Source: Candidatus Saccharimonadota bacterium
GTDB lineage: Bacteria; Bacillota_I; Bacilli_A; Mycoplasmatales; Hepatoplasmataceae
Length of the DNA: 32,000 nucleotides
Assembly (NCBI GenBank): GCA_027925325.1
Contig: AP027133.1
Location: forward strand, 210,001 to 242,000
Reading direction: 5' to 3'
Shown: piece after piece, positions 4,897 to 30,988 of the stretch
Layout of the letters: the number at the start of each line of letters is the position of its first letter
How positions within the stretch are numbered: position 1 is the stretch's first letter
Program-made: the position numbers and the translations under genes
Notes under the pieces: generated by a model
The model's input: the letters and a program-made list of their open reading frames with translations, nothing else
What the model was told of the DNA's origin: nothing
The model's database searches: none

Positions 4897-5655
4897 TTAG
4901 ACTCAAATAATATCTTGATATTTTCCATCGGTGAAATTTAATTTATTATCTTTTACAATAGCTAAAATATGATCATTTTTGCATAATTGATAAGCCTCTT
5001 CTGCTAATTCTTGTGCTTGTTTACGATCTTTTTGATGTCTAATTTTTTCCTTTGTTGCACTTTCTATTTTGCTATCTTTAAAGGCAATTTGTTCAAATTC
5101 ACTCTCTGTTGCAGCTGGTGCTAATACTTTTACCTTAATTTTCTTATTTAATTTTTGCAATTGTCTTGCGACACCTTCGGTTCAAGCACTTACAAAAAAT
5201 TTAGAAGCAGAATAAGTAAGAGCAGCTGAGAAAAGATTATAACCAACGACAGATGAGACATTTATCAATTGCACATCTTTATCTAAATTATCTTTAATAA
5301 ACATCATTGATAATAAAGTTAGGGCTTTGATATTTAAATCAAGTATCTTTTCTGTTTTAGCAAGATCTGATTCTCATACCAAATTCATATCGCCCATTCC
5401 GGCATTGTTTATAAAGATTTCGATTGGATATTTTTTAATATCATTGTAAAAAGTTATCACATTTTGGGAATTAGATAAATCACATTTGTAAACGATAACT
5501 TTTACCTTATATTTATTTTCAAGATCGTCTTTTAATTTATTTAATAATTGCTCTCTTCTTGCCACAATTATTAAATTATGTCCCTCTTTTGCAAACTTTT
5601 CTGCTAAAGCTTTTCCGATTCCGGCACTCGCACCGGTAATTAATGTATATTTCAT
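4897..5655 (-). CDS. Short-chain dehydrogenase/reductase (classical SDR), paralog 1 (252 aa if started at ATG 5655)
   Basis: Joins track ORFs 5374-5655 and 4903-5160 through TGA=Trp codons. Motifs: TGASAGIGKA (TGxxxGxG), NNAG, and S...YSASK (YxxxK). It ends ...DIIWV with TAA at 4897-4899. There is no canonical SD upstream, and it is in frame with the upstream ORF (see findings). Confidence 0.85.
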
Positions 5656-5673
5656 ATTTTTTTCACTTTCACA

Positions 5674-6225
5674 TCATATCTTGATTTTTTTACGATTAAA
5701 ATCAGATTCAATTATATTTTTAAATAATTTAAATTTATTTACGGTAATTGGTTCTTCTGAATTTAAATAACAGGTATGATTATTTATTTCAATTTTTTTT
5801 AAACTAGTTCTCTCTTTTGAAGAAATTTGATATATTACAACCTTATGATTACTTTTGGTATTAGGATCATTTATATAGTAAGGTCTTATCTTGTTTTCAG
5901 AATCCTTATATTTATAATCTAATATCTTATTATCATTTAGATAAATTATTTCTTGTTCTCTTACTTTTAAACTTGCATTTATATATTTTTTAAACTTCTT
6001 TTTTAAATTTGTAAAGTATTTTATATCATCTTTTGCAATTAAGTAATTATCATAATTTTCTCTATATTTATTTTGATCATCGATTCTTTTATATTCAATA
6101 AAATTTTGATATTTATCAGTCCAATTTCTAAATTTTTTTAAAATATCTTTATTTATTGAGTTTAAAATAAAGACCTTAAATTTTAATTCTAAAAAATTAA
6201 ATTTAGAAAAATTTTTATTTTGCAT
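5674..6225 (-). CDS. Hypothetical protein, paralog B. Its apparent stop is a TGA, so in table 4 it reads through into SDR paralog 1
   Basis: I chose ATG at 6225 (MQNKNFSKF...) by alignment with paralog A, not the TTG at 6243 used by the track. The codon at 5674-5676 is TGA, and six sense codons then lead to the SDR ATG at 5655 in the same frame. Confidence 0.6.
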   Translation of the reverse strand: MQNKNFSKFNFLELKFKVFILNSINKDILKKFRNWTDKYQNFIEYKRIDDQNKYRENYDNYLIAKDDIKYFTNLKKKFKKYINASLKVREQEIIYLNDNKILDYKYKDSENKIRPYYINDPNTKSNHKVVIYQISSKERTSLKKIEINNHTCYLNSEEPITVNKFKLFKNIIESDFNRKKIKI

Positions 6226-6233
6226 TTTAGATG

Positions 6234-6998
6234 TTAAATTCAACGGATATTATCATATTTTCCGTTTGATAATTTTAAATTGTTATCTTCAATTATGCCA
6301 AGAATTTTATCATTCTTATATAATTTATAACCTTCATTTGCTAAATCCTTTGCAGATTTAGCTCTTAATTTTTTTTGTTTTTTGTAAGCATTAATTTCTC
6401 AATGCTTATTTTTACTATGAATTAAAGCTTTTTCAATAAATTCACTTTCGGTAGTTGAGGGTGCTAATACTTTTACCTTAATTTTTTTATTTAATCGTTT
6501 TAATTGTTTTGCAACACTTTCTGTTCATGAGGCGACAAATACTTTGGAGGCAGAATAAGTAATCTCACCTGAGATAATATTATATCCTGCAGTAGAAGAA
6601 ACATTTATTAATTGCACATCTTTATCCAAATTATCTTTAATAAACATAATTGAAAGAGTTGTTAAGGCTTTGATATTTAAATCAAGCATTTTTTCAATTT
6701 TTTTAATATCAGAATTTCAAGGAAGATTTACATCACCTGATCCAGCATTATTTATAAATACTTCAATATCATATTCTTTAGTTTTCGCATAAAATTTTTG
6801 TACTTCATCTGAATCTAAGAGATCAACCGTATAAATAATAATATCAACATTATATTTATCTTTTAATTCTCCCTTAATAATTTTTAATAAATTAGTTCTT
6901 CTCGCTGCTAATATTAAATTGTGCCCTTCTTTTGCAAACTTTTCTGCTAACGCCTTTCCAATTCCAGAACTTGCTCCGGTAATTAAAACATATTTCAT
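6234..6998 (-). CDS. Short-chain dehydrogenase/reductase, paralog 2 (254 aa)
   Basis: I hand-translated it continuously from ATG 6998 with TGA=Trp. Motifs: TGASSGIGKA, NNAG, YSASK. It ends ...NIRWI with TAA at 6234-6236. Strong SD (AAAGGAG) upstream. Confidence 0.87.
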
Positions 6999-7050
6999 TT
7001 CTAATCTCCTTTCCCTAAATAAATTATATTATTATTTATAAATTAATTAA

Positions 7051-7076
7051 AAAGCAGTGAATTAATTCACTGCTTT
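7051..7076 (-). terminator. Perfect 26-nt palindrome / hairpin between SDR paralogs 3 and 2
   Basis: AAAGCAGTGAATT/AATTCACTGCTTT is self-complementary and flanked by T/A-rich runs on both strands. It lies 250 nt downstream of the SDR3 stop and 52 nt upstream of the SDR2 start. Confidence 0.4.
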
Positions 7077-7325
7077 CATTTTTAGAATTTTAAATCACAA
7101 GCTAGATTTCTAAAATAAATGACCTATTTTTTTTAAACATATTTAGCAATAATTATATACTTATAATTTATTTGTCTTTATAAAATTATCTCGCATAAAT
7201 AGAGAAAGTTATTACTAATATTTAATTTTATATTAAAATTAATATCCTTTTAAAATTGATTTTTAGGGTTGTGTATGATCTCCAAATCTAATATTATTTT
7301 TATTTATTTTATTTTTATAAATATT

Positions 7326-8087
7326 TTAAAACATATTAAATCATTTATTTTTTAATTTAAATTTATTTGTAAATGGATTTACAATTCCAATTACTTTATC
7401 GCTTTGATATAACTGGTATGTAAAATAAGCTAATTCATCTGCATTTTTGAAACGACTTTCGGTTCTTTTTTTTGCTTCTGAAACATCCTTTTCATTTAGT
7501 TTTGTTTTTTTGAAAGCACGTTCAAAAAATTCTGTTTTTGTTGGGCCAGGAGCTAATATTTTTACTTTTAATTTAGCCTTTTCTTGTTTTAGGAATCTTG
7601 CAATTCCTTCACTAAATGTTGAAACATAGAATTTAGTAGAAGAATATGCTATTCCATTTGATCAAATAAAATATCCTGCTGTTGAAGCTACATTTATGAT
7701 TTGTGTTTCTTTATTTAAGTTATCTTTAATAAAAAGTAATGATAAGTCGGTTAGGGTTTTGATATTTAGATCTAACATTTTATTGATCTTTAAAATATCA
7801 CTTTCTCAAGGTTTATTAATGTCACCAAATCCGGCATTATTTATCAAAACCTCAAGATCATATTTTTTAATTTGATCATAAAAATCGAAAACATTATCAG
7901 TAATTGTTAAATCATAAACAAAAACCAATACTTTAACTTCAAATTTTTTTTCAAGATCTTTTTTTAATTCATTTAATAATTCTTCTCGTCTTGCGACAAT
8001 AATGATATTGTGTCCTTTTGCAGCAAAATAAGTTGCTATTGCCTTTCCGATTCCAGAACTAGCGCCAGTTACTACTGTATATTTCAT
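7326..8087 (-). CDS. Short-chain dehydrogenase/reductase, paralog 3 (253 aa)
   Basis: N-terminus from track ORF 7806-8087 (TGASSGIGKA, NNAG), extended through TGA codons. The C-terminus ...KFKLKNKWFNMF ends with TAA at 7326-7328. SD AGGAG upstream. Plus-strand ORF 7447-7629 is an antisense shadow. Confidence 0.85.
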
Positions 8088-8158
8088 TTTTCTCCTATTC
8101 TATTTAAATTATATTATTAATATCTAAATAAAAATAATCATATATATTTTTAATATTT

Positions 8159-11892: not shown

Positions 11893-13491
11893 ATGTCTGA
11901 AGAGACAGATATTAAACCATTAAAGAGTAATTCAAATCATTCTAATGATAAAAAGAAGCGTAGATTTAAGATGCCATCGGCACTGGTAATTATTTTAGGT
12001 GTTATTGTTATTGTTACGATTCTTACGTGAGGATTTCAAGGACAAAGTTATGATTATTATGGTGAAGATGGACAAATAACCACCTCAACTGTTACGGCAG
12101 TTGGATTGTTTTCGATTCCGGTTTATATAATTGGCGGATTTGCAAATGCTGCAGGAATCATATTTTACTTATTTGTTTTAGGGTGATTTTTAGATGTAGT
12201 AATAGGTAGCGGAGCGATGGAAAAAGGAATTAAATCGCTTATTTCTGGTTTGCATGGAAAAGAGATAATATTAGTTCCTTTAATGTTTTTTTTATTTGCG
12301 CTAGGTGGAACTACCTTTGGTATGCAAGAAGAAACATTAGCCTTATATATTTTTATTGTTCCGATGTTTCTTCTTGCTGGTTTTGATACACTGACAGGAC
12401 TTTTGGTAATTTTGTTAGGTACTACAACCGGATTTGCTTCTTCTGTTATTAATCCCTTTTCAGTCGGTGTAGCCGTTGATTCGATTAATGATATGAGTAT
12501 AATGATTGATGGACAAACTATTAGTATAACAATCGGTGATGGAATGATCGCACGACTAGTTATGTTTATTATTCTTACTTCGATAGGTTGTATTTTTATT
12601 ACTCTTTATGCGATAAGAGTAAAAGCAAAACCAAAAAAATCCTTAACATATAAGACACGTGATAAGGATTTAGAGTGAGCGAAAAAATCATTTGAAAGTT
12701 CTATACATCAAAGTAAAAAGATGACCTGAAGACAAAAATGGATTCTTTCACTTTTTGGAATTACATTTTTAATAATGTTTTTAGGAATGTTTCCTTGATA
12801 TACATTTTTTAATGATGGAGCAGCAAGAAATAATATTGATAATCCTAGTTGAAATTCATGATTAATCGGTGGAATGAGTACGTTTGGAGCTTGAGATTTT
12901 CCAGAATTAATATTATTATTTGGTGTTTCTGCTTTTGTTATCTCTTTAATTGCAAAAATGCGCGGAGGAGAGATATTAGAATCTTTTTGAAGAGGATCAA
13001 AAGATATGTTAAGCGTAGCAATTATTATCGCTGTTGCTAGAGCTATTCCGGGAATTTTAAGTGCTTCAGGATTAGATTATTATATTGCACAGGGAATCGG
13101 AGGAGCGATCGGTAACGTTGGCGCATGAGGTTGATCATATTCAATGTTTCTTGTATTTTTCATTTTTGCTTTACTTATTCCTTCGACATCAGGATTAGCA
13201 GCTGCAACAATGGGAACATTTTCAATCGTTGCCTCTGAAATTTCATCATTTAATTCAAGTCCTGAACAATTTACACAAATATTAATCGTAACAGTCTGTG
13301 TTTATTCACTTGCGGTCGGGGTTATTAATATGTTTATTCCGACACAAGCCGTTGTGATGCTTTCTTGTGAAAGAGCGAGAGTTCCTTATGGAACGGCCTT
13401 AAAACCGATTGGAATTTATATATTAATACAATTGGCGGTAATTTTTGCAATAATAATTCCTTTATTACAAATTATTGCTAATAATTATTAA
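11893..13491 (+). CDS. YfcC-family membrane transporter (DcuC-like fold), probable arginine/ornithine exchanger of the ADI operon (532 aa)
   Basis: Continuous frame with many TGA=Trp codons, joining ORFs 12217-12678 and 13144-13491. Strong similarity to E. coli YfcC as I recall it (RRFKMPSALVII..., LFALGGTTFGMQEE, GFASSVINPF). Multiple hydrophobic segments. Confidence 0.85.
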
Positions 13492-14479: not shown

Positions 14480-14763
14480 TTAATCTTCATCTTGTGGACG
14501 ATCAAGTATTTCAGACATTTTTTTGGTATTTTTTTTCATTTTAATATCAACAAATAATAAAACTAATATTAATATAATTAATATTATTAAAATCGTAATT
14601 ATTAAATATACGATATTTTTTGCAGATTGATTGTCTTCGGTTTTTATCGTTCCATTTTCAGAAATATCTAATGAATCATCTTCTACAATATCTGTAAAAC
14701 TTAAATTAATAAAATTATAGGTAGTATTTGCTTTAAGATTATTAACCTTAAAACTAAATTGAT
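14480..14763 (-). pseudogene. Orphan 3' fragment of the RCC1 surface-protein gene: last beta-module, TM anchor and short cytoplasmic tail, with no start codon
   Basis: Reads ...QFSFKVNNLKANTTYNFINLSFTDIVEDDSLDISENGTIKTEDNQSAKNIVYLIITILIILIILILVLLFVDIKMKKNTKKMSEILDRPQDED, with TAA at 14480-14482. On the minus strand the frame only opens at 14791 and has no initiator. Its upstream partner sequence is present in inverted orientation. Confidence 0.6.
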
Positions 14764-14912
14764 CAAGAAAATGGAACTGTGCAATATCAATTTAGTTTTA
14801 AGGTTAATAATCTTAAAGCAAATACTACCTATAATTTTATTAATTTAAGTTTTACAGATATTGTAGAAGATGATTCATTAGATATTTCTGAAAATGGAAC
14901 GATAAAAACCGA
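14637..14912. repeat. Perfect 127-bp inverted repeat (14637-14763 vs 14786-14912) with a 22-bp spacer
   Basis: I compared the reverse complement base by base and the arms are identical. The match stops at both ends (14764 c vs 14785 t; 14636 vs 14913). Confidence 0.85.
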
Positions 14913-15808
14913 TTCTAATTCTCAACAATTTATTCTTAATGCTGATTATCAAGTTGAATTGCAAAATTTAAATGCAGAAACAAATTATAAAATAGATTCT
15001 ATCAATTATTTTTATCAAAATGGAACTTATAAATATACAATTGATCAAAATATAGTAACTTTTAAAACAGAACCAGCAACACCAGAAATAAAAGCAGATA
15101 CAATTGCCTTAGTTGATAATTCTTTACAAAAAAATCAATTTCAGTATACAATTGAAATTGATAATTTAAAAGCAAATTCTGATAAGACAAATTTTACACA
15201 ATATGATGTAAATGAAGGAATTTGACTTGTTGATCAAGATAATAATTACTATCATTCAACATTTATCGATGCAAAAATAATTTCAAGCGGAACGATAAAT
15301 GGAACACAAAATTATCAATTAACATTTTTACAAAATGATCTTATAAGTGGACAAACTTATCAATTTAATGGAATAAGTATTACCGATCCAAATACATCAA
15401 CAGATGATATTATTAATTTTTCTGATCCATTTATCATTACAACTACAATAATTGATAAAAATTTTGTTAGTGATAGTTTTATTATTGATCAATCCTCAAT
15501 TACAAAAAATTCATTTACTTATACCGTAGCAATTGATAATTTAATTTTAATAAATGAAGATGAGAAAAATCCACAATTTGAAAATTTTAATCTGGATGAT
15601 GGATTATATTTAATCGATAATAATGATGATAGTTACAGTTCAAATTACATCGAGGGAAGTGCTATCAAACTAAGTGAGAACCAAGAAAATGGAACTGTGC
15701 AATATCAATTTAGTTTTAAGGTTAATAATCTTAAAGCAAATACTACCTATAATTTTATTAATTTAAGTTTTACAGATATTGTAGAAGATGATTCATTAGA
15801 TATTTCTG
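14764..15808 (+). pseudogene. Internal body of the RCC1 surface-protein gene (beta-sandwich modules) lying on the opposite strand to its 5' and 3' parts, with no start codon or signal peptide
   Basis: The plus-strand frame (track ORF 14779-15225, extended through TGA) opens at 14758 without an ATG. It encodes ...SNSQQFILNADYQVELQNLNAETNYKIDSINYFYQNGTYKYTIDQNIVTFK...QFSFKVNNLKANTTYNFINLSFTDIVEDDSLDIS. The 1045-bp segment begins and ends with the same 127-mer (14764-14890 = 15682-15808), so the unit is 918 bp = 306 codons. Confidence 0.6.
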
Positions 15809-15935
15809 TGTATATTTATAAGTTCCATTTTGATAAAAATAATTGATAGAATCTATTTTATAATTTGTTTCTGCATTTAAATTTTGCAATTCAACTTGAT
15901 AATCAGCATTAAGAATAAATTGTTGAGAATTAGAA
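15682..15935. repeat. Two abutting 127-bp repeat copies: 15682-15808 (direct copy of 14764-14890) and 15809-15935 (reverse complement of 14913-15039)
   Basis: Aligned by eye, both are identical over exactly 127 nt, with mismatches immediately outside each block. Confidence 0.85.
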
Positions 15936-17764
15936 ACATTATTATCGATATTTGTATAATTTAATTCTATTTTCCTTTGATCATCTGTGTAATTATTAAT
16001 ATTAAAATCAGCGCTATTTTGATCTAAATTTAAAGCAAAGGTAGCTGTTTCTTCCGCAGCGGAAACAAAATTATAACTAGAAATTAAATAATCTGTTGTA
16101 ATTTGTGGTTGATTTAATTCAAATTCATCTTCATTAATTATTATTTTAGTGAAATTATAACTTTGACCATACATAATATTATTTACTTGATAATAATATT
16201 GATCATTATTTATATTAGATTTATCTGTAATAAAAGTTGTTGTATAACTAACATCATTCTGATCAATTAAAATTACTTCAGGAGATTGATTTATGATATC
16301 TTTATAATCATTTAAAATAATATTTAATTCAATATTATTATTATCTTCGTAATAAAATTCTGTTTTATTAATAAAGAAATCAAAAGAAGAATCAATTAAT
16401 GTTGGAACATGTTTATCAACTGTACTATTATCACCAAGTTGTCCATCGGCATTATGTCCCCACATATACAAGGTATCGGCATATCCATCTAAATCAATAT
16501 CAATCGTAATACCACTATGAAGTGAACCTAAACTTAAATCAATAACATTCCCATCTCAATCACTCTCTTGTGGGGTTATTTTTGTTGGAACATGTTTATC
16601 GCTTGTATTATTATCACCAATTTGACCCTCACTATTATCTCCTCACACATATAAAGTATCAGCATATCCATCTAAATCTTCATCAATCGTAACACCGCTA
16701 TCATTTGAACCTAAATCTAAATCAATAATATCTCCACCTCAATTACTTTGTCCCTGCGGAGTTATTTTTGTTGGAACATCTTTATTAATTGTACTATCAT
16801 CACCAAGTTTTCCATCACTATTATCTCCTCACATATACAAAGTATCAGCATATCCATCTAAATCTTCATCAATTGTAATCCCACTATGATTTCCGCTTAA
16901 ACTTAAATCAATAATATCTCCATTTCAATCACTTTGCCCTTGTGGAGTTATTTTTGTCGGAGTATCTCTATTAAATACAGTATTATCACCAATTTGACCC
17001 TCATTATTATCTCCTCACATATATAATGTATCGGCATATCCATCTAAATTGGTATCAATCGTAACACCGCTATGACTTCCACTTAAACTTAAATCAATAA
17101 TATTTCCACTTCAATCACTTTGTCCTTGTGGAGTTATTTTTGTTGGAACATCTTTATTAATTGTACTATCATCACCAAGTTGTCCACTACCATTATATCC
17201 TCACATATATAATGTATCGGCATATCCATCTAAATCGGTATCAACTGTAGCACCACTATTATTTGTACCTAAATCTAAATCAATAATATCTCCACCTCAA
17301 TCACTTTGCCCTTGTGGAGTTATTTTTGTCGGAACATGTTTATCGCTTGTACTATTATCACCAAGTTGGCCATAATTATTTCTTCCTCACATATATAATG
17401 TATCGGCATATCCATCTAAATCGGTATCAATTGTAACGCCACTATGATATGATCCTAAACTTAAATCAATAACATTCCCACCTCAATCACTTTGCCCTTG
17501 TAGGGTTATTTTTGTTGGAACATGTTTATCACTTGTACTATTGTCACCAATTTGTCCATATTGATTATCTCCTCACATATAAAGAGTATCTGCATAAAGA
17601 TCATTATCGGTATCAACTGTAGCACCACTATTATTTCACCATGTTTTAAGTGACAGAATTTTATCGTTTGTACTTAATTCTTTATTTTTTAAGTGATTTG
17701 GTTTATTTAAACCTATGCTTAAAAATAAAAAAGGTATCAAAAGAAGTGAAAATATTTTTTTCAT
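15770..17764 (-). CDS. Signal peptide + 7-bladed RCC1-like propeller surface protein, 5' portion. The ORF ends 39 nt past the rearrangement junction (664 aa as assembled)
   Basis: ATG at 17764 (MKKIFSLLLIPFLFLSIGLNK...). Seven repeats of the type DGYADTLYMWGxNxxGQ[IL]GDNST..K.VPTKITPQGQSDWGG.IIDL, with Trp mostly encoded by TGA. It joins track ORF 15770-16471. The last 12 residues (QKYLMNHLLQYL) are antisense of the 127-bp repeat. Confidence 0.75.
16400..17640 (-). repeat. Tandem ~180-nt (60-aa) coding repeats = seven RCC1 blades with high mutual DNA identity
   Basis: Strings such as gcatatccatctaaatc and cctcacatata recur with a ~180-nt period. Confidence 0.7.
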
Positions 17765-21442: not shown

Positions 21443-24400
21443 TTAATTTTTTTTTTTATTGATTTTTTCGATATCTTTTTTAATATCTTTATTTTCTTTA
21501 TTAATCTCTTTTACTATTTTTGATAATTCTGAGATCTCTGATGTTAATTTTTCTGTTTTATTAGGTCCTCTAGTTACTCTTTTTACTCTTACTACTGGTT
21601 TAGAATTACTACTTGAATTATTTAATTTTGTAATATTATTTTTAATATCTTTATTTTCTTTATTAATCTCTTTTACTATTTTTGATAATTCTGAGATCTC
21701 TGATGTTAATTTTCTTGTTTCGTTACTTCTTTTATTAACTTTAGGAACAGATCTGGTACTATTTGAAGTATTTAATTTTTTTACTATTTTTGATAACTCT
21801 AAAACCTCTTCTGTTAATTTTTCTGTTTTATTAGGTTTTTTAGCTGTCTTTTTTTTCTTATTTGCAATATTATTTTGTTCTGAATTATTTATTTCTTCAA
21901 TATTAATTTTAATATCTCTATTTTCTTCATCTATTTTTCTTACTATTTTTGATAATTCTGAGATTTCTTCAGTTAATTTTTTTGTATCATCGGGTTTCTT
22001 GCTAGTTGCTTTTCTTGTTTTTCTTTTTCTAGTTGCCGGTGCTTTTTTTTCAACTACAGGTTGTTCTTTTTGTTTACTTAAATCATCTACTTTTTTAGAT
22101 AATTCTAAAATTTCTGATGTTAATTTTTCAGTATATTTTGAATTATCTGGATTAACTTCTTTTGCTTCTTTTTCTGGTTGAGTTTGTTCAAGGTTGTAAA
22201 CTGTTAAAGGTTGAGGTTCTTCTTCTTTTGTTTCATTTTTAATTTCCTCTTTCTTTTCTTCTGTAATTTTTTCCTTCTTTTTCTTTTTTTCTTTTTCAGA
22301 ATCATTTTGTGACAATAAAATAAGTAACAATATTAAGATTAATAATAATATTATTATAATAATTAAAATTCATCATCATGGAAAACAGCAATCATCATCG
22401 CTATTACTTACATCCGTATGAATTATTCCATCATCTATATCTTCAAATGGTCCATTTTGATTAAATCCTATGTAAATAAATTGATAGTCAGTATCTGGTT
22501 TTAGTCCATTAACTTCAAATGTAAATCTATAAATTACAGTAGTATCTTCTGTACCATCACTTATATATTTTCCACTATTATTTACATAAGTTGAACTATA
22601 ATTAGTATCATTAATATCTTTTAAATATAAATCTGAATATGGATCAAAATTATAAAAAGTTGGATTTGCTTTTACATCTTGTAATTGAGAATTTTCTAAT
22701 AATAAATTATCAACTTCAATTGTATATTGAAAAGATGTATCGGTGATTGTATTTTCAAGAATTGTAAATGTGTAACCAAGAATTATCGGATCTATATATC
22801 CATCATCTGGGATAATAACATCTAGTGATGGATTTATAGGAATAATATTAGAATCATCTGGTCCTGTTGGTTGATCGAAACTGATTCCATTAAATTGATA
22901 TTCCTCATCATCTTTAAGTCCACTTATTTTATAAGTCATTAAATAATTATAAGCACCATTATAATCACTATTTTCATAAAATTCTTGCGTAATAAAAGTT
23001 GCTTTATAAATATCTCCATTACTATCAACTAATCACATTCCATCATTTACATCATAATTTGTAAAATTTGTTTCATCGATGTTAGGAATTAAATTGTCTA
23101 TTTCAACTGTAAACTGAAAAGAATTTGAAGTTATTGTATTTTCAATTACTTCGATTGTTTCGGTTTGAATTATTGCATCAACACTTTTTGTTTCAAATTT
23201 TTTAGATTCTTGTTCAATTTGATATTTATAATTTCCATCTTCATAAAAATACTGAATTGAATCTATTTGATAATTTGTTTCAACATATAAATCTGTTAAT
23301 TCAATTTCTTTTAATGCATCTATTGTAAATTCTTTATTATAAGAAATATCTCTATCAAGATCGGTGTAATTTACTTTTGTTTTTAATTGATCGCTTGTAT
23401 AGTCACTAAAAGTAACATTATTATTTTGATTTAAATCTAATGTAATTGTCGCTGTTTCTTCAGTTACTGATTCAATAGAATAATCAGAAATAATATAATC
23501 AGTTGTGAATCCCTCATCATCTAAAGGAAAGGATTCTTCATTAATTATTATTTCTTTAAAGTAATAATTTGTTCCTCTTTCAATTCCATTTACTTGATAG
23601 TAATATTGGTCGTTAGGAATATCTGAATTTGAAGAAATAAAGGTTGTTGTATAAGTATTATCTTCACTATCTATTAATAAAACAGTAGGAGGTTGATTGA
23701 TAAGATTATTGTAATCATATAATTTTAGATCTATATATAACTCATCATCATTAAAAATAAAATTTAAATCAGCAATAGAAAACGAATTATCAGTATATAT
23801 AGGGATAAAATAAAGTTGATCAGGATTATTATTATTATTTCCATCGGCTATTTGCCCATATGTATCACTTCCACATGCGTAAAAACTATCAACAATTCCA
23901 TCTCCATTATTATCGGCGATAATACCAGTACTACTAAATCCGTTTGATAATGAATAAATAGATCCAAATCAAGATGATTGATTTTCTGGATAAACAATTG
24001 TTGGTCTAGAAACATCATTTGTTGTACCTACACCAATTTGTCCATTTGAGTTTCCGCCTCACATGTAAACAGTGTCACCTAAATTATCTGAATTTGAATC
24101 AATTATTACTCCAGAAGTGTAACTACCTTTTTCAAATTGTAAAATACTTCCTCCTCAATCACCTGATTGAGGAGTAATCATTATTGGATAATATCTAATA
24201 ATTTGTGTCCCATCACCAATTTGTCCATAATTATTTTGCCCTCAACTATATATTGAATCGCCTACTCCATCTAGATCAGTATCAATTAATACACCTGAAT
24301 TAAAAAATCCTAATGTTAAATCAATTATATCTCCATTTCAATTACCGCTCTGTGGACTAATAATTGTAGGATATTGGAGATATTCATAAGATGGTCCTTT

Positions 24401-25195
24401 TCCAATTTCGCCATATGTATTATCGCCTCACATATACAAGGTATCGGCAAATCCATTTAAATCAGTATCAACACTAACTCCACCAAAACGAGAACCTAAT
24501 TTTAAATCAATTATATTTCCATTTCAATCATTACTTTCGGGAGTGATAATTTCTGGATATAAAATTTTTGTTTCTTCTTTTGGTGATATTTCATAACTTG
24601 TATTTTCACCTCAACCGTATATTAGATCACCGAATCCATCATTATTAGTATCTATTAAAATGGCTGTATTTGCATACATTAATGATAAAGTTATAATATT
24701 TCCGCCTCAATCACTTTGCCCTTGTGGATTAATGATTTGTGGAGTTTCAACAAAACCTGTTGTTTCTCCATTTCCCATTTCTCCACGATAATTACTTCCT
24801 CACATGTAAAGAGTATCGGCATATCCATCTAAATCAGTATCAACTGTAGCTCCACTAAATAATTGAGCTATTTCCAAATTAATTACATTTCCGCCTCAAT
24901 CACTTTGCCCTTGTGGTGTAATTTCTACTGGTGAAAATTTATCAGTAGAAGTTCCATCACCAATTTGATAATTATTATTTTGCCCCCACATATAGATGGT
25001 ATCTCCATTTTGATCACCATCAGTATCGACAATTGCTCCATTTGTATTTCCATCTGCTGAAAATTCTAAATCTGTTACCGTTGCATTTTCTAAATTTGCA
25101 AAATTTTTTGTTTTTTTAAAATTTGAATTTCCATAACCATACCCAAATGTGAGTAATATTGGAAAAATAATAATTGCAATAATGAATTTTTTCAT
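21443..25195 (-). CDS. Type I membrane protein: signal peptide, 7-bladed RCC1-like propeller, beta-sandwich-like modules, one TM helix, and a ~290-aa Lys/Glu-rich cytoplasmic repeat tail (1250 aa)
   Basis: Track ORFs 24896-25195, 22376-22939 and 21443-22330 share one frame (the offsets are multiples of 3). I hand-translated the gaps without meeting TAA or TAG. Seven YxWGxNxxGQIG-type blades. The TM region is ...DDDCCFPWWWILIIIIILLLILILLLILL. The tail has five copies of KLT[SE]EI[SL]ELSK[IK]V. Confidence 0.8.
21470..22130 (-). repeat. Five coding repeats in the cytoplasmic tail (KTEKLTSEISELSKIVKEINKENKDIKNNI type)
   Basis: The last two copies are nearly identical at DNA level (about 21480-21570 vs 21645-21735). 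Earlier copies are more diverged. Confidence 0.65.
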
Positions 25196-25500: not shown

Positions 25501-25691
25501 AATGATTAAGAATTAAAAAGATAAAAATTAATCAATTTATTATAAAAAATTTAATTAATTGATAATTTTACCTTTAGAGTTAATAGATAGTGTTAAAATT
25601 TTGCTTAATTAAATTAAGTAATAGCGTTTTTATTTAAATGTAAATTTATATATATTTGAATAAAAATAATATATTTGGAATAAATAAAATT

Positions 25692-28600
25692 ATGGAAAAA
25701 AAAATTAAATTAAATTTTGATAAAAATAAAATTGTTAAGAATGATGCAAAAAAAGAAAAAGAAGAAATTTTGTCATTTATAACTGATTCTGCACATGTAC
25801 AGACTATAAATCCTTTAAAAGAAGGAGGAGATTCTCAACAAGAAGTAAATGAAAAAATTTTGCAAAATATTAACTCTATTGTAGATGGTAGTATTCCTGT
25901 AAAAGTTAGTACTTCATCAATAAATGCAAATGATTCTATTAATGAGAATGGTTTAACACAAAAGGAAGCAAATGAAAATAGTAAACAAAATTTTGATCTT
26001 TTGACATCTAAAATAGATGGATTAAATTCTGATATTGTAGATATCAACAATAAAATTGATAATTTTGTTTTTAATGCACCTACTTCAGATGTTTCAATTT
26101 CTGATCCTATATTAGAAGGTGGATCTACCCAAGAGGAAGTTAATAAAAATAATAAACAAAATTTTGATCTTTTAAATGATCAAATTGATAATTTTAATAA
26201 TGGTACTTATCCAATTAGAACCACAACATCATTTACTAATACTATAAATTCTAATTTAGAAAATGGTACAACACAAGAAGAGGTTAATAAAAATGATAAA
26301 AAACTTATTGATTTAATTGTTAACGGTGATACTTTAATTAAAACTTCTTCTTCTTATGTTGATACAATTAATTCTCTTCAAGAAGGAGGATCTAAACAAG
26401 AAGAAGTAAATAAAAATAATAAACAAAAAATTAGTGATATCAATTCTTTGATTATAGAAATGGATGATAAAATCTCTGATTTTAAAATCGAAGCTGATAC
26501 ATCTAAAATTAGTTCAACCGATGTCACATTGGAAGGTGGAACAACACAACAAGAAATTAATGTAAAGGGTGAGGTTAATTTAAGTCAAATAAATTCTGAA
26601 ATTTCTGAAATTAACGATAAAATTTCTTGTCTTGATTGTTTTGATGGAAATATTGATACATCATTAGTTAGTACATCTGATAAAGTTTTGGAAGGAGGAA
26701 TAAACCAAAGGGAAGTAAATGAAGTAAATAAGAAAAATCTTGAAAATATAAATATTTTGGTAGATGATATAGATTGTAAGATTGATGATCTTGAGATAAA
26801 AACTACTACTTCAAATGTTATCGCAGGCGATGGCTTTTTTGAGGGTGGTCCAACACAACAAGAGATAAATGAATCTAATAAAGAAAGTATATTTACTTTA
26901 AATTCCGAAATAATTTCAATAAATTCTGAAATTTCTGATCTTAGCGATAAAATTGATTGTTTTGAATGTGATTGCAATGATGATTCTGATGATAATAATG
27001 ATGTTATTGATACTAAATCTCTTAATGCTGTTGATTCTGATTTAGAAGGTGGAACAACACAACAAGAAATCAATCAAAATATGAAAGAATCGATCATTAA
27101 TCTTATAAATGATGGAGTTAAACCTGGAAATACTTCAACTGTTCCTACAATTAATCTTATTTTAGAAAATGGCGCAACACAAGAAGAAGTAAATAAAAAC
27201 ACCAAACAAGCAATCGACGGAATTAGTGATCAAATTGATGGAATTTCAATAGAAAATGATACTTCAGCTGTTTCAACTTTTAATGCAATTTTAGAAAATG
27301 GTGTAACACAAGAAGCGGTAAACAAAAACACCAAACAAGCAATTGATGATATCGTCGATCAAATTGATGGACTTCCAACAGATTTTGATACTTCATCTGT
27401 TACTACTGTTAATTCTATTTTAGAAAATGGTGCAATACAAGAAAATGTTAATAAAAACACAAAAGATGCAATCGATGATATTAATGATAAAATTGATAAT
27501 TTTGAGTGTAATTGTATTACTTCTTCTATTACAACAGTTGATGAAATTTTAGAAAATGGCGCAACACAAGAAATAGTAAATAAAAACACCAAGCAAGCAA
27601 TCGATGATATTAATGAGGAAATTGATGGACTTCCAACATCTGTTGCGACCTCTTCTACTATTACAGTTGATGAAACTTTAGAAAATGGAAAAACACAAGA
27701 AATAGTAAATAAAAACACCAAACAAGCAATTAATGATATTGGCGATCAAATTGATGGACTTCCAACAGATATTGCTACTTCATCTGTTGCAACAGTTGAT
27801 GAAACTTTAGAAAATGGTGCAACACAAGAAATAGTAAATAAAAGTAATAAGCAAGCTTTTGATGAGATAAGTTATGAAATTAGTGAACTTCCAACAGATA
27901 TTATTACCTCATCTGTTAAAACTTCTGATACGGCATTAGAAAATGGTACAACGCAAGAAGAAGTAAATAAAAATACTAAGCAAGCAATTGATGATATTAA
28001 TGAGGAAATTGATTCACTTCCAACAGATATTGATACACCAGCTATTACTACATTCAATGCAATTTTAGAAAATGGTATAACACAGGAAGCAGTAAATAAA
28101 AATACCAAACAAGCAATCGACGGTATTGATGATCAAATTGGTGAATTATTAGATAAGAATACATCATTTGTTGAAACTGTTAATGCAACTCTAGAAAATG
28201 GTACAACACAAGAAATAGTAAATAAAAACACCAAACAAGCAATTGATGATATTAATGAGGAAATTGATGGACTTCCAACATCTGTTGCGACCTCTTCTAC
28301 TATTACAGTTGATGAAACTTTAGAAAATGGTGCAACGCAAGAAATAGTAAATAAAAACACCAAACAAGCAATTGATGATATTGGCAATCAAATTGACGAA
28401 TTATTAGATAATGACACATCATCTGTTACAACAGTTGATGAAATTTTAGAAAATGGTCCAACACAAGAAGAAGTAAATAAAAAAACCAAACAAGCAATTG
28501 ATGATATTAATGAGGAAATTGATGGACTTCCAACATCTATTGCTACTTCTTCTACTATTACAGTTGATGAAACTTTAGAAAATGGTCCAACACAAGAAAT

Positions 28601-30641
28601 AGTAAATGAAAACACCAAACAAGCAATTGATGATATCGGCAATCAAATTGATGAATTATTAGATAATGACACATCATCTGTTACAACAGTTGATCAAACT
28701 TTAGAAAATGGTCCAACACAAGAAATAGTAAATGAAAACACCAAACAAGCAATCGATGATATCGGCAATCAAATTGATGAATTATTAGATAATGACACAT
28801 CATCTGTTACAACAGTTGATGAAATTTTAGAAAATGGTCCAACACAAGAAATAGTAAATGAAAACACCAAACAAGCAATTGACGATATTAACAATCAATT
28901 AGATGGACTTCCAACAGATATCGTAACTCCTTCTGTTGCAACAGTTGATGAAACTTTAGAAAATGGTGCAACACAAGAAATAGTAAATAAAAACACCAAA
29001 CAAGCAATCGATGATATCGGTGATCAAATTGATAATATTGGGAATTTTTTAACTTCAAATGTTATTGCAGTGGATGATTTATTAGAGGGCGGAGAAATCC
29101 AACAAATCATTAATCAAGATAATAAAAATGTTATTGATTTAATTAATTCTGAAATTATTGATATAAATGAGATAATTAACAATTTTTCTTTAAATCTTAC
29201 ATCTTTTGATTTAACAACAGTTGATGAAACTTTAGAAAATGGTGCAACACAAGAAATAGTAAATGAAAACACCAAACAAGCAATTGATGATATTGGTAAT
29301 CAAATTGATGGACTTCCTACAACAATGATTACCTCATCTGTTATAAGTGTTGATATAACTTTAGAAAATGGCACAACACAGGAAGAAATCAATCAAAATA
29401 ACAAAAATTCGATTGATACTTTAAATCAAGAGATTAGTGATCTTATTGATAGTGGTATTCCTTCAATTGATACATCTTTGCTTAATACTGCTGATGAAGC
29501 TTTAGAAAATGGTACAACACAACAAGAAATTAATCAAAATAACAAAAATTCTCTTGATGATTTGAATTCTGATTTAGTATCAGCTAATGATCAAATTGCT
29601 GATATTATCGATGGTACAGCTGGAGTTAAAATAAATACTAATTATATTTTAGAAGAAAGCACAATACAAAAAATTTTAGAAGATGGTGCAACTCAACAAG
29701 AAATCAATCAAAATAACAAAAATTCTCTTGATGATTTAAATTCTGATTTTGCAAACTTAGATACTGAAATTGATAATATTAACGAGAGAATTGAAAATAT
29801 TAATAGAGATTTTAATACTGCAGATGTAGAATCAATTAATTCTAATGATGAATCTGGATCAGTTCAACAAGAAATTAATCAAAATAACAAAAATTCTCTT
29901 GATGATTTGAATTCTGATTTAGTATCAGCGAATGATCAAATTGCTGATATTATCGATGGTACAATACAAGTTGTAAATAAAACTTCAAATGTTATTCCAA
30001 TTAATCCTGATTTAGAAGGTGGCTCTACACAGAGTGAAGTTAATCAAAATAATAAAAATTCTCTTGATGATTTAAATTCCGATGTAACTACAATAGATTC
30101 TGATATTGATGATATTAATGAAAAAATAGATAGCATTGTTATTACTAAAACGACTCCAAATGTTATTACTGTTGATAGTAATTTAGAAGGTGGAAATACA
30201 CAACAAATAGTTAATGAAACTATACAAAGCGATCTTCAAACTATAGTTTCTAATATCTCTGAAATTATTAATGGTTCAACAACAATAAATATTCAAACAT
30301 CATCTGTTATTCCTGAGGATGTTAGTTTGGAAGGAGGAATAAATCAAGAAGAAATAAATAAAAATAATACTAGAAAAATTTATGATTTACGTTGTGCAAT
30401 TGATGATATTGTACATGGTGTAATTATAATTCCTATTATTACATCAGATGTTAATACGGTTGATGCAATTTTGGAAAATGGTGAAACACAAAGAGAAATT
30501 AATGAAAATAAAAGAAAAATGATAAATTTAATAAATGTTAAAATTAGTAATTTAATTATTACAATAAATACTCTTCAAACAAATATTTCATTTTTATCTT
30601 CTTGTAGTGATTGTAGACTACCTCAAAAAACAATTGCTTAA
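25692..30641 (+). CDS. Giant acidic repeat protein, ~34 repeats of 43-50 aa with core LE[NG]GxTQ[EQ]x[VI]NxNxK (1649 aa). No signal peptide, TM segment or Trp
   Basis: One uninterrupted ORF. I chose ATG 25692 (MEKKIKLNFDKNKI) over the track's TTG 25656 because the paralog starts MEKQTKIDFDKYKI. I counted 34 core motifs in the translation. All minus-strand ORFs inside it are antisense shadows of the repeats. Confidence 0.85.
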   Translation: MEKKIKLNFDKNKIVKNDAKKEKEEILSFITDSAHVQTINPLKEGGDSQQEVNEKILQNINSIVDGSIPVKVSTSSINANDSINENGLTQKEANENSKQNFDLLTSKIDGLNSDIVDINNKIDNFVFNAPTSDVSISDPILEGGSTQEEVNKNNKQNFDLLNDQIDNFNNGTYPIRTTTSFTNTINSNLENGTTQEEVNKNDKKLIDLIVNGDTLIKTSSSYVDTINSLQEGGSKQEEVNKNNKQKISDINSLIIEMDDKISDFKIEADTSKISSTDVTLEGGTTQQEINVKGEVNLSQINSEISEINDKISCLDCFDGNIDTSLVSTSDKVLEGGINQREVNEVNKKNLENINILVDDIDCKIDDLEIKTTTSNVIAGDGFFEGGPTQQEINESNKESIFTLNSEIISINSEISDLSDKIDCFECDCNDDSDDNNDVIDTKSLNAVDSDLEGGTTQQEINQNMKESIINLINDGVKPGNTSTVPTINLILENGATQEEVNKNTKQAIDGISDQIDGISIENDTSAVSTFNAILENGVTQEAVNKNTKQAIDDIVDQIDGLPTDFDTSSVTTVNSILENGAIQENVNKNTKDAIDDINDKIDNFECNCITSSITTVDEILENGATQEIVNKNTKQAIDDINEEIDGLPTSVATSSTITVDETLENGKTQEIVNKNTKQAINDIGDQIDGLPTDIATSSVATVDETLENGATQEIVNKSNKQAFDEISYEISELPTDIITSSVKTSDTALENGTTQEEVNKNTKQAIDDINEEIDSLPTDIDTPAITTFNAILENGITQEAVNKNTKQAIDGIDDQIGELLDKNTSFVETVNATLENGTTQEIVNKNTKQAIDDINEEIDGLPTSVATSSTITVDETLENGATQEIVNKNTKQAIDDIGNQIDELLDNDTSSVTTVDEILENGPTQEEVNKKTKQAIDDINEEIDGLPTSIATSSTITVDETLENGPTQEIVNENTKQAIDDIGNQIDELLDNDTSSVTTVDQTLENGPTQEIVNENTKQAIDDIGNQIDELLDNDTSSVTTVDEILENGPTQEIVNENTKQAIDDINNQLDGLPTDIVTPSVATVDETLENGATQEIVNKNTKQAIDDIGDQIDNIGNFLTSNVIAVDDLLEGGEIQQIINQDNKNVIDLINSEIIDINEIINNFSLNLTSFDLTTVDETLENGATQEIVNENTKQAIDDIGNQIDGLPTTMITSSVISVDITLENGTTQEEINQNNKNSIDTLNQEISDLIDSGIPSIDTSLLNTADEALENGTTQQEINQNNKNSLDDLNSDLVSANDQIADIIDGTAGVKINTNYILEESTIQKILEDGATQQEINQNNKNSLDDLNSDFANLDTEIDNINERIENINRDFNTADVESINSNDESGSVQQEINQNNKNSLDDLNSDLVSANDQIADIIDGTIQVVNKTSNVIPINPDLEGGSTQSEVNQNNKNSLDDLNSDVTTIDSDIDDINEKIDSIVITKTTPNVITVDSNLEGGNTQQIVNETIQSDLQTIVSNISEIINGSTTINIQTSSVIPEDVSLEGGINQEEINKNNTRKIYDLRCAIDDIVHGVIIIPIITSDVNTVDAILENGETQREINENKRKMINLINVKISNLIITINTLQTNISFLSSCSDCRLPQKTIA
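25790..30520 (+). repeat. Coding tandem-repeat array. The central units (about 27100-29300) are 129-nt (43-aa) copies at very high identity, with a 255-nt two-unit super-period
   Basis: Example: DETLENGPTQEIVNENTKQAIDDIGNQIDELLDNDTSSVTTVD is repeated almost verbatim at about 28560-28690 and 28690-28820. The two back-to-back 255-nt antisense ORFs in the track (28133-28387 and 28388-28642) reflect the super-period. Confidence 0.85.
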
Positions 30642-30879: not shown

Positions 30880-30988
30880 TTAGAATTAATTGATCATTTA
30901 TTAAATTAAAGTAATTTTATTAAATGATTTAAATATAGATGTTGATTAAAAATTTTATTAAAAAATAATAAATGGGAAAAATTAAATT

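What the first reader, a model, noticed from the sequence alone, without database searches (positions are those of the whole stretch)
14480..15935. Second RCC1 gene is broken by a 1045-bp opposite-strand segment bounded by three perfect repeat pairs of exactly 127 bp
Seen in sequence, there are three repeat pairs. (a) 14637-14763 is the exact reverse complement of 14786-14912. (b) 14764-14890 equals 15682-15808 as a direct repeat. (c) 14913-15039 is the exact reverse complement of 15809-15935. All blocks are exactly 127 nt and abut each other. The segment 14764-15808 therefore starts and ends with the same 127-mer, giving a 918-bp = 306-codon unit closed on itself. The flanks end and begin with the reverse complements of two adjacent internal 127-mers. 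As assembled, the gene's 5' part (17764-15809) runs into antisense sequence and stops after 12 codons. Its body lies on the plus strand without a start, and its TM-anchor 3' end (14763-14480) is orphaned. Flipping the segment and collapsing the overlaps restores one in-frame ORF: 1956 + 791 + 157 = 2904 nt, plus 918 nt for each additional unit. The domain order is then the same as in the intact paralog at 21443-25195. The junction between 14912 and 14913 (..IKTD|SNSQQF..) only makes sense if the 918-bp module is tandemly duplicated. Interpretation 1, which I favour: this is an assembly artefact. 127 is a k-mer size commonly used as the largest k in de Bruijn assemblers, and a self-overlapping repeat unit appears to have been pasted in the wrong orientation. 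Interpretation 2: this is a genuine inverted or invertible cassette switching between an anchored full-length protein and a truncated secreted propeller. Either outcome matters for annotation.
Basis: partly seen in the sequence, partly recalled or inferred. Interest (0 to 1): 0.65.

Follow-up and report, generated by a model that had tools for sequence, protein, structure and literature searches.

The report
Misassembled surface-protein gene, k=127 artefact
The "inverted segment" that breaks this gene is almost certainly an error made when short sequencing reads were stitched together, not a real DNA switch; the real gene is one ordinary membrane-anchored surface protein, probably carrying a recent exact internal duplication.

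Summary
Three exact 127-nt repeat pairs sit at the stated coordinates, and none extends by a single base. Chance expectation is about 1e-55.

The window uses genetic code 4 at 25% GC. It comes from the 606,194-bp 'Candidatus Hepatoplasma scabrum' Ps-JP genome. That genome was assembled with SPAdes 3.15.3 from Illumina reads only, at 20x depth, and was left unpolished (PMC10928387).

127 is the largest SPAdes k, and 127-bp overlaps are a documented SPAdes artefact (PMC5923482). Segment 14764-15808 has the form of a loop contig (918 + 127 nt). The two flanks end in k-mers shared with that loop. The three pieces were pasted blunt, with the loop in the wrong orientation.

Collapsing the overlaps gives a single minus-strand ORF of 967 aa, plus 306 aa for each extra unit. 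It is collinear with seven homologues across both junctions.

No inversion between the exact repeats restores the membrane anchor, and no recombinase gene is nearby.

One real feature probably lies underneath: an in-frame, perfectly identical 918-bp tandem duplication of at least two copies. The copy number cannot be known without reads. Interest is low, but the public record needs correcting.

The parts
14480..14636 (-). Unique 3' end of the gene: linker, transmembrane helix (IVYLIITILIILIILILVLLFV), short cytoplasmic tail and stop codon (14480-14482).
   Evidence: The reconstruction reads through to a stop ending at 14480. The segment aligns with the TM and tail of P0001, P0003, P0004, P0005 and P0007.
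14637..14763 (-). Block A, the end of the long contig. It is the reverse complement of the last 127 nt of the 918-nt unit, i.e. the k-mer where the path leaves the repeat. It duplicates 14786-14912.
   Evidence: Exact 127-nt inverted repeat with zero extension.
14764..15808 (+). Loop contig of 1045 nt (918-nt period plus 127-nt self-overlap), pasted in the wrong orientation relative to its flanks. Read on the + strand it encodes part of Ig-like domain 4, the unit-unit junction, the second half of Ig-like domain 2, Ig-like domain 3 and most of Ig-like domain 4. The source gene calls list it as a separate 356-aa protein (14779-15849, +).
   Evidence: First and last 127 nt are identical. Translation. 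P0121 is 100% identical and lies on the 606,194-bp contig.
14912..14913 (+). Unit-to-unit junction (..ENGTIKTD|SNSQQF..). This is the only place where the end of the unit is followed by its start. It implies at least two tandem copies in the sequenced DNA.
   Evidence: Graph logic. The junction is in frame because 918 nt is 306 codons. No homologue has a counterpart.
15809..15935 (-). Block rcC, the start of the long contig. It is the reverse complement of the first 127 nt of the unit, i.e. the k-mer where the path enters the repeat. It duplicates 14913-15039.
   Evidence: Exact 127-nt inverted repeat with zero extension.
15936..17764 (-). Unique 5' part of the gene: signal or anchor peptide, seven RCC1-like propeller blades (186-nt period), Ig-like domain 1 and the first half of Ig-like domain 2.
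   Evidence: Open under code 4. Pfam RCC1 with 7 stretches, E = 7.7e-62. Blade repeats are families D4, D6 and D10. Domain limits come from the P0001 model.
21443..25195 (-). Intact paralogue of 1250 aa, used as the collinearity reference. It has the same propeller, four Ig-like domains and TM helix, plus a long repetitive cytoplasmic tail.
   Evidence: Single ORF under code 4. Aligned.

Best explanation
The arrangement at 14637-15935 is a misjoin of three pieces of a SPAdes de Bruijn graph built with k = 127.

How the graph produced it: the real gene lies wholly on the minus strand and contains a 918-bp segment repeated in perfect tandem. 150-nt reads cannot resolve such a repeat, so the graph holds a 918-nt cycle. 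The long chromosome contig stops on each side at the 127-mer where it meets the cycle (blocks 14637-14763 and 15809-15935). The cycle was written out as its own contig of 918 + 127 nt (14764-15808).

How the error arose: the three pieces were then concatenated end to end. The 127-nt overlaps were not merged, and the loop contig went in reverse orientation.

What the real gene encodes: one surface protein with a signal peptide, a 7-blade RCC1-like propeller, a stalk of Ig-like domains, a TM anchor and a short tail. Its length is 967 aa for one unit and 306 aa more for each extra unit, so 1273 aa for two.

Shown versus inferred:
- Shown: the repeat geometry, the restored ORF, its collinearity with homologues, and the SPAdes origin of the genome.
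- Inferred: the blunt pasting step, and the claim that at least two unit copies exist (about 0.75 given the artefact).
For: - Repeat geometry: three exact repeats of exactly 127 nt with zero extension, and no other exact inverted repeat of 40 nt or more in 32 kb.
- Source: the window's protein P0002 sits on a 606,194-bp contig, the same length as the one carrying HPPSJP_2360 of Ca. Hepatoplasma scabrum. That genome (AP027133.1; 606,194 bp; 24.7% GC) was taken unpolished from a SPAdes 3.15.3 assembly of 2x150 Illumina reads. Depth was 20x Illumina and 4.9x ONT, and the authors' own read mapping flagged 30 structural variants.
- Restored ORF: collapsing the overlaps gives an uninterrupted ORF of 967, 1273 or 1579 aa for 1, 2 or 3 units.
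- Collinearity: the restored ORF aligns without gaps across both flank-to-unit junctions with a same-genome paralogue (P0001, 71% identity, 974 aa), H. crinochetorum homologues (973 aa) and the window's other paralogue.
- Symptom of the misjoin: as assembled, the locus gives two convergent called genes that overlap by 80 nt (P0002 and P0121).
Against: - No reads, depth or assembly graph were available, so neither the absence of reads across 14763|14764 and 15808|15809 nor the copy number was tested.
- The paper does not state the k values used. To my knowledge k = 127 is not the SPAdes default for 150-nt reads.
- The loop contig starts 22 nt upstream of the exit k-mer rather than at a branching k-mer. 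I cannot explain this (note).
- The authors report that read mapping looked sound.
- A two-unit protein would start its second copy in the middle of Ig-like domain 2. Its stalk would be far longer than in any of 15 homologues. The duplication is therefore structurally awkward.
Confidence: 0.92

Rival explanations
1. Same assembly artefact, but the gene has only one copy of the 918-bp unit (967 aa). On this reading the unit-to-unit junction 14912|14913 that closes the loop is itself spurious, produced by chimeric reads or a low-coverage graph error.
For: - The one-unit form matches the family norm: homologues are 962-991 aa with stalks of 348-488 aa.
- The duplication would begin in the middle of Ig-like domain 2.
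- At 20x depth with k = 127, k-mer coverage is only about 3x, so the graph is fragile (inference).
Against: - Closing a cycle at k = 127 needs 127 consecutive 128-mers across the junction. That takes several independent 150-nt reads, so one chimeric read cannot do it (inference).
- The junction is in frame.
Confidence: 0.2
2. A real invertible cassette. A site-specific or homologous recombination switch flips 14764-15808 and toggles between a truncated secreted propeller and an anchored full-length protein.
For: - Perfect inverted repeats are present.
- Flipping 14764-15808 alone, without collapsing anything, happens to give an in-frame 1094-aa ORF that contains the TM anchor.
- Mollicutes are known for invertible surface-antigen loci (general knowledge).
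Against: - The segment's own ends are direct repeats, not inverted ones. The inverted arms are offset (outside-left with inside-left, inside-left with outside-right).
- Recombination between the exact inverted repeats reaches 8 states with ORFs of 664, 921 or 970 aa. None contains the TM anchor or a collinear protein.
- The 1094-aa product has scrambled and duplicated half-domains.
- No recombinase or invertase is encoded in the window.
- Three natural repeats all exactly equal to an assembler's maximum k is not credible.
Confidence: 0.01
3. A real, fixed rearrangement. The gene is a true pseudogene, broken by an inversion-duplication event in this symbiont lineage.
For: - Reduced symbiont genomes accumulate pseudogenes (general knowledge).
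- H. crinochetorum Av has a truncated 464-aa RCC1 gene in the corresponding cluster.
Against: - All parts are 100% identical copies with no decay, and every reading frame is still open.
- The boundaries are exactly 127 nt three times.
- The geometry is exactly that of graph pieces overlapping by k.
Confidence: 0.03

Closest known systems
SPAdes k-mer-length overlap artefacts (127-bp duplicated ends of circular or loop contigs; unresolved tandem repeats shown as graph cycles)
   Same: The repeat length equals the maximum k (127). The middle piece carries the same 127-mer at both ends. The flanks end in k-mers shared with the cycle. Removing the overlaps restores a sensible sequence. The source genome was assembled with SPAdes.
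   Different: The usual artefact is a single direct terminal duplication on a circular contig. Here three pieces were joined blunt inside a finished chromosome, with the loop piece reversed, which creates two false inverted repeats. The loop's start point is 22 nt away from the branching k-mer.
RCC1-like beta-propeller surface proteins of Hepatoplasmataceae (ten reported in Ps-JP and seven in H. crinochetorum Tokyo2021; PMC10928387)
   Same: The restored protein has seven RCC1 repeats (Pfam E = 7.7e-62), four Ig-like domains, a TM helix and a short tail. It is 71% identical to HPPSJP_2360 and 61% identical to the 973-aa H. crinochetorum proteins.
   Different: It probably carries an exact 306-aa internal tandem duplication (half of Ig-like domain 2, then domains 3 and 4). 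None of 15 homologues has this.
Invertible-DNA phase-variation switches (Hin/Gin/Fim type; Mycoplasma vsa/hsd shufflons)
   Same: Perfect inverted repeats lie next to a surface-protein gene in a mollicute.
   Different: Inverted repeats do not bound the segment. No recombinase gene is present. No reachable orientation gives a functional anchored protein. This is not a member of that class.
Size-variable mollicute surface proteins with in-frame tandem repeats (e.g. Vsa of M. pulmonis, Vlp of M. hyorhinis; from my own knowledge)
   Same: If the duplication is real, it is an in-frame, perfectly identical tandem repeat in the extracellular stalk of a membrane-anchored protein. It could expand or contract by slippage or recombination.
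   Different: The unit is very large (306 aa, against tens of aa in those proteins). It cuts through a folded domain. Copy-number variation has not been observed.

Membership tests
de Bruijn (SPAdes, k=127) contig-overlap misjoin | Repeat length equals the assembler's k, with no extension beyond it | tested here: met
   Three pairs are each exactly 127 nt with zero extension on every side. 127-bp SPAdes overlaps are documented.
de Bruijn (SPAdes, k=127) contig-overlap misjoin | The sequence was produced by such an assembler | tested here: met
   The source was identified through P0002 and HPPSJP_2360 on a 606,194-bp contig. The paper states SPAdes 3.15.3, Illumina only, unpolished. The k values are not stated.
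de Bruijn (SPAdes, k=127) contig-overlap misjoin | The middle piece has loop-contig form (length = period + k, identical k-mer at both ends) | tested here: met
   14764-15808 is 1045 nt, i.e. 918 + 127, and 14764-14890 equals 15682-15808.
de Bruijn (SPAdes, k=127) contig-overlap misjoin | Merging the overlaps in the graph-consistent orientation restores a biologically sensible sequence | tested here: met
   An uninterrupted ORF of 967 aa (plus 306 aa per extra unit) is collinear with 7 homologues across both junctions.
de Bruijn (SPAdes, k=127) contig-overlap misjoin | No reads span the blunt joins 14763|14764 and 15808|15809 | not testable with these tools
Invertible DNA switch | Inverted repeats bound the invertible segment | tested here: not met
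   The ends of the segment are direct repeats (D16). The inverted arms I1, I2 and I4 are offset.
Invertible DNA switch | The alternative orientations give defined functional products | tested here: not met
   A search over all inversions between exact inverted repeats of 60 nt or more found 8 states with ORFs of 664, 921 or 970 aa. None has the TM anchor.
Invertible DNA switch | A dedicated recombinase is encoded nearby | tested here: not met
   Pfam scans of 12 window proteins found no recombinase or integrase. The remaining genes are the second and third SDR paralogues, ADI, OTC and FtsZ, identified by synteny. The rest of the genome was not available.
Hepatoplasmataceae RCC1-like propeller surface proteins | Seven RCC1-type blades at the N-terminus | tested here: met
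   Pfam RCC1 with 7 stretches, E = 7.7e-62, and WD40_RLD at E = 1.4e-49. The P0001 model shows 7 blades with pLDDT above 90.
Hepatoplasmataceae RCC1-like propeller surface proteins | An Ig-like stalk followed by a C-terminal TM helix | tested here: met
   The model of the 71%-identical paralogue P0001 has four beta-sandwich domains (469-919) and a helix at 925-965. The restored protein aligns throughout.
Tandem-repeat size-variable surface protein | In-frame identical tandem repeats inside the coding region | tested here: inconclusive
   This is inferred from the closed 918-nt (306-codon) cycle. The copy number cannot be read from the assembly.
Tandem-repeat size-variable surface protein | Copy number varies between cells or strains | not testable with these tools
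   No reads and no second assembly of this organism were found.

The most novel reading that the evidence does not exclude
Under the artefact lies a real, perfectly identical 918-bp (306-aa) in-frame tandem duplication in the stalk of a membrane-anchored RCC1-propeller protein. Its copy number varies within the symbiont population. This would lengthen or shorten the stalk that holds the propeller away from the cell, a very large-unit form of mollicute surface-protein size variation.
Probability: 0.12. Interest if true: 0.4.

Novelty: not a real feature. Interest (0 to 1): 0.12.

Why it matters
**Effect on the public record.** AP027133.1 is the only genome of 'Candidatus Hepatoplasma scabrum' and defines the taxon. 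At this locus it carries a false 1045-bp opposite-strand segment and 3 x 127 bp of duplicated sequence.
- One surface-protein gene is split into a truncated 664-aa protein and a spurious 356-aa opposite-strand protein, and its membrane-anchor end is orphaned.
- That truncated protein probably corresponds to locus tag HPPSJP_2180 (my inference from tag spacing).
- Counts and comparisons of the RCC1-like candidate host-interaction proteins, and any inference of a secreted propeller or a phase-variable cassette, would be wrong.

**General lesson.** Exact repeats whose length equals an assembler's k, abutting each other, are a diagnostic signature. They should be screened out before inverted repeats are interpreted biologically.

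**Possible biological residue.** The only likely real feature left is a recent in-frame tandem duplication of unknown copy number.

Tried and rejected
- **Public genome scan.** I could not fetch the rest of the source genome or a sister strain.
- **Exact-protein look-ups.** P0002 and P0001 were not on record, so no second assembly of this organism was found.
- **Second protein search.** Searching with the loop translation, which includes the unit-unit junction, found only the window's own 356-aa ORF and one 50%-identical JGI protein. There is no independent sighting of the junction.
- **Structure prediction.** I modelled the 71%-identical paralogue P0001 instead.
- **Orthologue check.** The 973-aa H. 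crinochetorum protein P0004 lies upstream of ftsZ, not after the arginine deiminase operon. It is therefore not the positional orthologue. The syntenic position in strain Av holds a cluster of 991/989/990-aa paralogues.
- **Inversion models.** These were rejected.
- **Palindrome idea.** I considered whether the 22-nt spacer 14764-14785 is palindromic, which would make the left junction graph-legitimate. It is not: inward extension of the inverted repeat is zero.
- **Literature searches.** A first search of the held library for this kind of SPAdes misjoin gave nothing relevant. A second led to a phage-assembly paper with only an unrelated 79-bp artefact. A third led to the two papers describing the ordinary 127-bp terminal overlap.

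Full report
**1. Checking the observation**

All three repeat pairs are exact at the stated coordinates:
- 14637-14763 is the reverse complement of 14786-14912.
- 14764-14890 equals 15682-15808.
- 14913-15039 is the reverse complement of 15809-15935.

None of them extends by even one base on any side. The repeat finder reports the same pairs as I1, I2 and D16, plus the derived 105-nt pair I4.

They are the longest exact repeats in the 32-kb window. The next longest exact direct repeat is 86 nt, inside a truly repetitive gene. No other exact inverted repeat of 40 nt or more exists. About 1e-55 exact 127-nt pairs are expected by chance. The window contains no N.

**2. What the window is**

The window is 24.9% GC and reads as coding only under genetic code 4 (TGA = Trp). 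Under that code there are 30 long ORFs, against 22 under table 11. The "intact paralogue" at 21443-25195 has 16 stops under table 11 (15 in-frame TGA plus the terminal stop) and only the terminal stop under table 4.

A protein search with the restored protein gave these hits:
- The window's own truncated product: P0002, 664 aa, 100% identity, on a 606,194-bp contig.
- HPPSJP_2360 of 'Candidatus Hepatoplasma scabrum': P0001, 974 aa, 71% identity, 100% coverage, on a contig of the same length.
- 973-aa proteins of Ca. H. crinochetorum: 61% identity, 98% coverage.

The paper describing this genome is PMC10928387. It gives AP027133.1 as 606,194 bp and 24.7% GC. [quoted passage not shown] Depth was 20x Illumina and 4.9x ONT, and Illumina read mapping called 30 structural variants.

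Gene order in window 1-14473 matches H. crinochetorum Av:
- rsmH, ftsZ and a GmrSD-like gene.
- Short-chain dehydrogenase (SDR) paralogues.
- Arginine deiminase (ADI), ornithine carbamoyltransferase (OTC), a DcuC-type carrier and carbamate kinase.

In strain Av the carbamate kinase gene is likewise followed by a cluster of RCC1-like genes.

**3. Anatomy as a de Bruijn graph**

Call the 918-nt unit U, defined as 14913-15808 followed by 14891-14912. In gene sense (the minus strand of the flanks):
- The 5' part ends with the first 127 nt of U (block 15809-15935).
- The 3' part begins with the last 127 nt of U (block 14637-14763).
- The middle piece 14764-15808 is U rotated, written out with 127 nt of self-overlap (918 + 127 = 1045 nt).

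This is what a k = 127 graph holds when a segment is repeated in exact tandem. There is a cycle, an entering edge that ends on the first k-mer of the cycle, and a leaving edge that starts on the last k-mer.

The assembled record strings the three pieces together blunt, with the cycle piece reverse-complemented. That creates the two false inverted repeats and the false direct repeat.

From my own knowledge, 127 is the largest k SPAdes accepts and is not its default for 150-nt reads. The paper does not state the k values used.

**4. Restoring the gene**

The restored sequence is the reverse complement of 15936-17764, then n copies of U, then the reverse complement of 14480-14636. It gives an uninterrupted ORF of 967 aa for n = 1, 1273 aa for n = 2 and 1579 aa for n = 3, with the stop ending at 14480.

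I aligned the one-unit protein with the same-genome paralogue P0001, the window's 1250-aa paralogue, and P0003, P0004, P0005, P0007 and P0013. It is collinear, with no gaps, across both flank-to-unit junctions:
- At the 5' junction, NYTNIDNNV|SNSQQFILNAD matches NYTNLDNNINNSQQFILD.
- At the 3' junction, ENGTIKT|EDNQSAKNI matches ENGIIKTDNNNTTKNI.

Pfam finds seven RCC1 repeats (E = 7.7e-62).

An AlphaFold model of P0001 has mean pLDDT 86. Its parts are:

| Part | Residues in P0001 |
|---|---|
| 7-blade propeller | 38 to about 460 |
| Ig-like domain 1 | 469-554 |
| Ig-like domain 2 | 568-666 |
| Ig-like domain 3 | 673-791 |
| Ig-like domain 4 | 805-919 |
| TM helix | 925-965 |

This agrees with the paper's model of a homologue.

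As assembled, the locus instead yields three fragments:
- P0002, 664 aa: 652 real codons plus 12 antisense codons.
- P0121, a spurious 356-aa protein on the opposite strand (14779-15849), which overlaps P0002 convergently by 80 nt.
- An orphaned anchor end.

**5. Testing the invertible-cassette reading**

- The segment's own ends are direct repeats, not inverted ones.
- I enumerated every arrangement reachable by inversion between exact inverted repeats of 60 nt or more. There are 8 states, with ORFs of 664, 921 or 970 aa. None includes the TM anchor and none equals the collinear protein.
- Flipping 14764-15808 alone does give an in-frame 1094-aa ORF with the anchor. It contains scrambled, duplicated half-domains, and no inverted repeats exist at those ends to drive the flip. 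The in-frame result follows from offsets that happen to be multiples of 3.
- No recombinase is encoded in the window.

A real fixed rearrangement is equally unlikely. All copies are 100% identical, all frames are open, and all three boundaries equal the assembler's k.

**6. What is probably real underneath**

The loop piece contains the junction 14912|14913, where the end of the unit is followed by its start (..IKTD|SNSQQF..). At k = 127 this junction needs 127 consecutive 128-mers, so several independent 150-nt reads must support it (my inference). The sequenced DNA therefore most likely contains at least two tandem copies, at least in part of the population.

The duplication is in frame at 306 codons. 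Its start falls between two strands in the middle of Ig-like domain 2, and its end falls just after Ig-like domain 4.

None of 15 homologues has more than a 488-aa stalk, whereas the two-unit form would have 776 aa. So this would be a recent and structurally awkward event, not a family feature.

Copy number and heterogeneity cannot be determined without reads. I put about 0.75 on at least two copies, given the artefact.

**7. Unexplained details**

- The loop piece starts 22 nt upstream of the exit k-mer rather than at a branching k-mer. The number 22 equals 150 - 128, which may be coincidence. Alternatively, the flanks may have been detached from the cycle during graph simplification, leaving a self-loop with an arbitrary origin.
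- The sequence cannot show whether SPAdes itself or a later manual merge of "chromosome contig + loop contig" produced the blunt joins (note).

**8. Verdict**

The invertible-cassette reading is rejected.

The feature is not real biology, so interest is low. The practical consequence is a needed correction to the reference genome of Ca. H. scabrum and to the annotation of one of its RCC1-like surface proteins.

Noticed in passing
window 25644-30641 (+) and 30986-32000 (+): A very large repetitive ORF (about 1650 aa) is built of roughly 43-aa (126/129-nt) tandem units (..TSS..TVDETLENG.TQE.VNKNTKQAIDDI..). A second ORF of the same kind follows and runs off the window. Neither has a convincing Pfam match. 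They correspond to the 'large, repetitive ORFs in tandem clusters' mentioned in PMC10928387. The long opposite-strand ORFs inside them (26354-27871 and 27872-29641) look like by-products of the repeat composition.
   Followed up: partly
window 21443-22330 (-), the C-terminal tail of the 1250-aa paralogue: The cytoplasmic tail of the intact paralogue carries 4-5 imperfect copies of a motif about 50 aa long (..KLTSEISELSKIVKEINKENKDIK..), with up to 97% DNA identity between copies. The H. crinochetorum protein P0013 has the same kind of tail, but the 967-aa class lacks it.
   Followed up: partly
window 16384-17610 (-): The propeller blades of the broken gene are unusually alike at the DNA level: 186-nt period, 81-86% identity, and exact stretches up to 52 nt. 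They are much more homogeneous than the blades of the paralogue at 24166-25023. This suggests recent blade homogenisation within the gene.
   Followed up: no
window 4897-8099 (-): Three tandem short-chain dehydrogenase paralogues. The first (442 aa) has an N-terminal extension of about 190 aa with no Pfam match. H. crinochetorum Av has a similar 449-aa plus 251-aa pair and several more copies near its RCC1 cluster.
   Followed up: partly
L005 20757-22445 (H. crinochetorum Av, CP006932.1): In the syntenic RCC1 cluster of strain Av, three genes of about 990 aa are followed on the opposite strand by a 464-aa RCC1 protein and a 95-aa ORF. This may be a truncated or split paralogue, either a real pseudogene or another annotation or assembly problem.
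   Followed up: no
window 13457-13491: The reading frames of the DcuC-type carrier (ending 13491) and carbamate kinase (open from 13457; first ATG at 13532) overlap. The convergent stops of carbamate kinase (14473) and the RCC1 gene (14480) are only 6 nt apart, which leaves no room for separate terminators.
   Followed up: no
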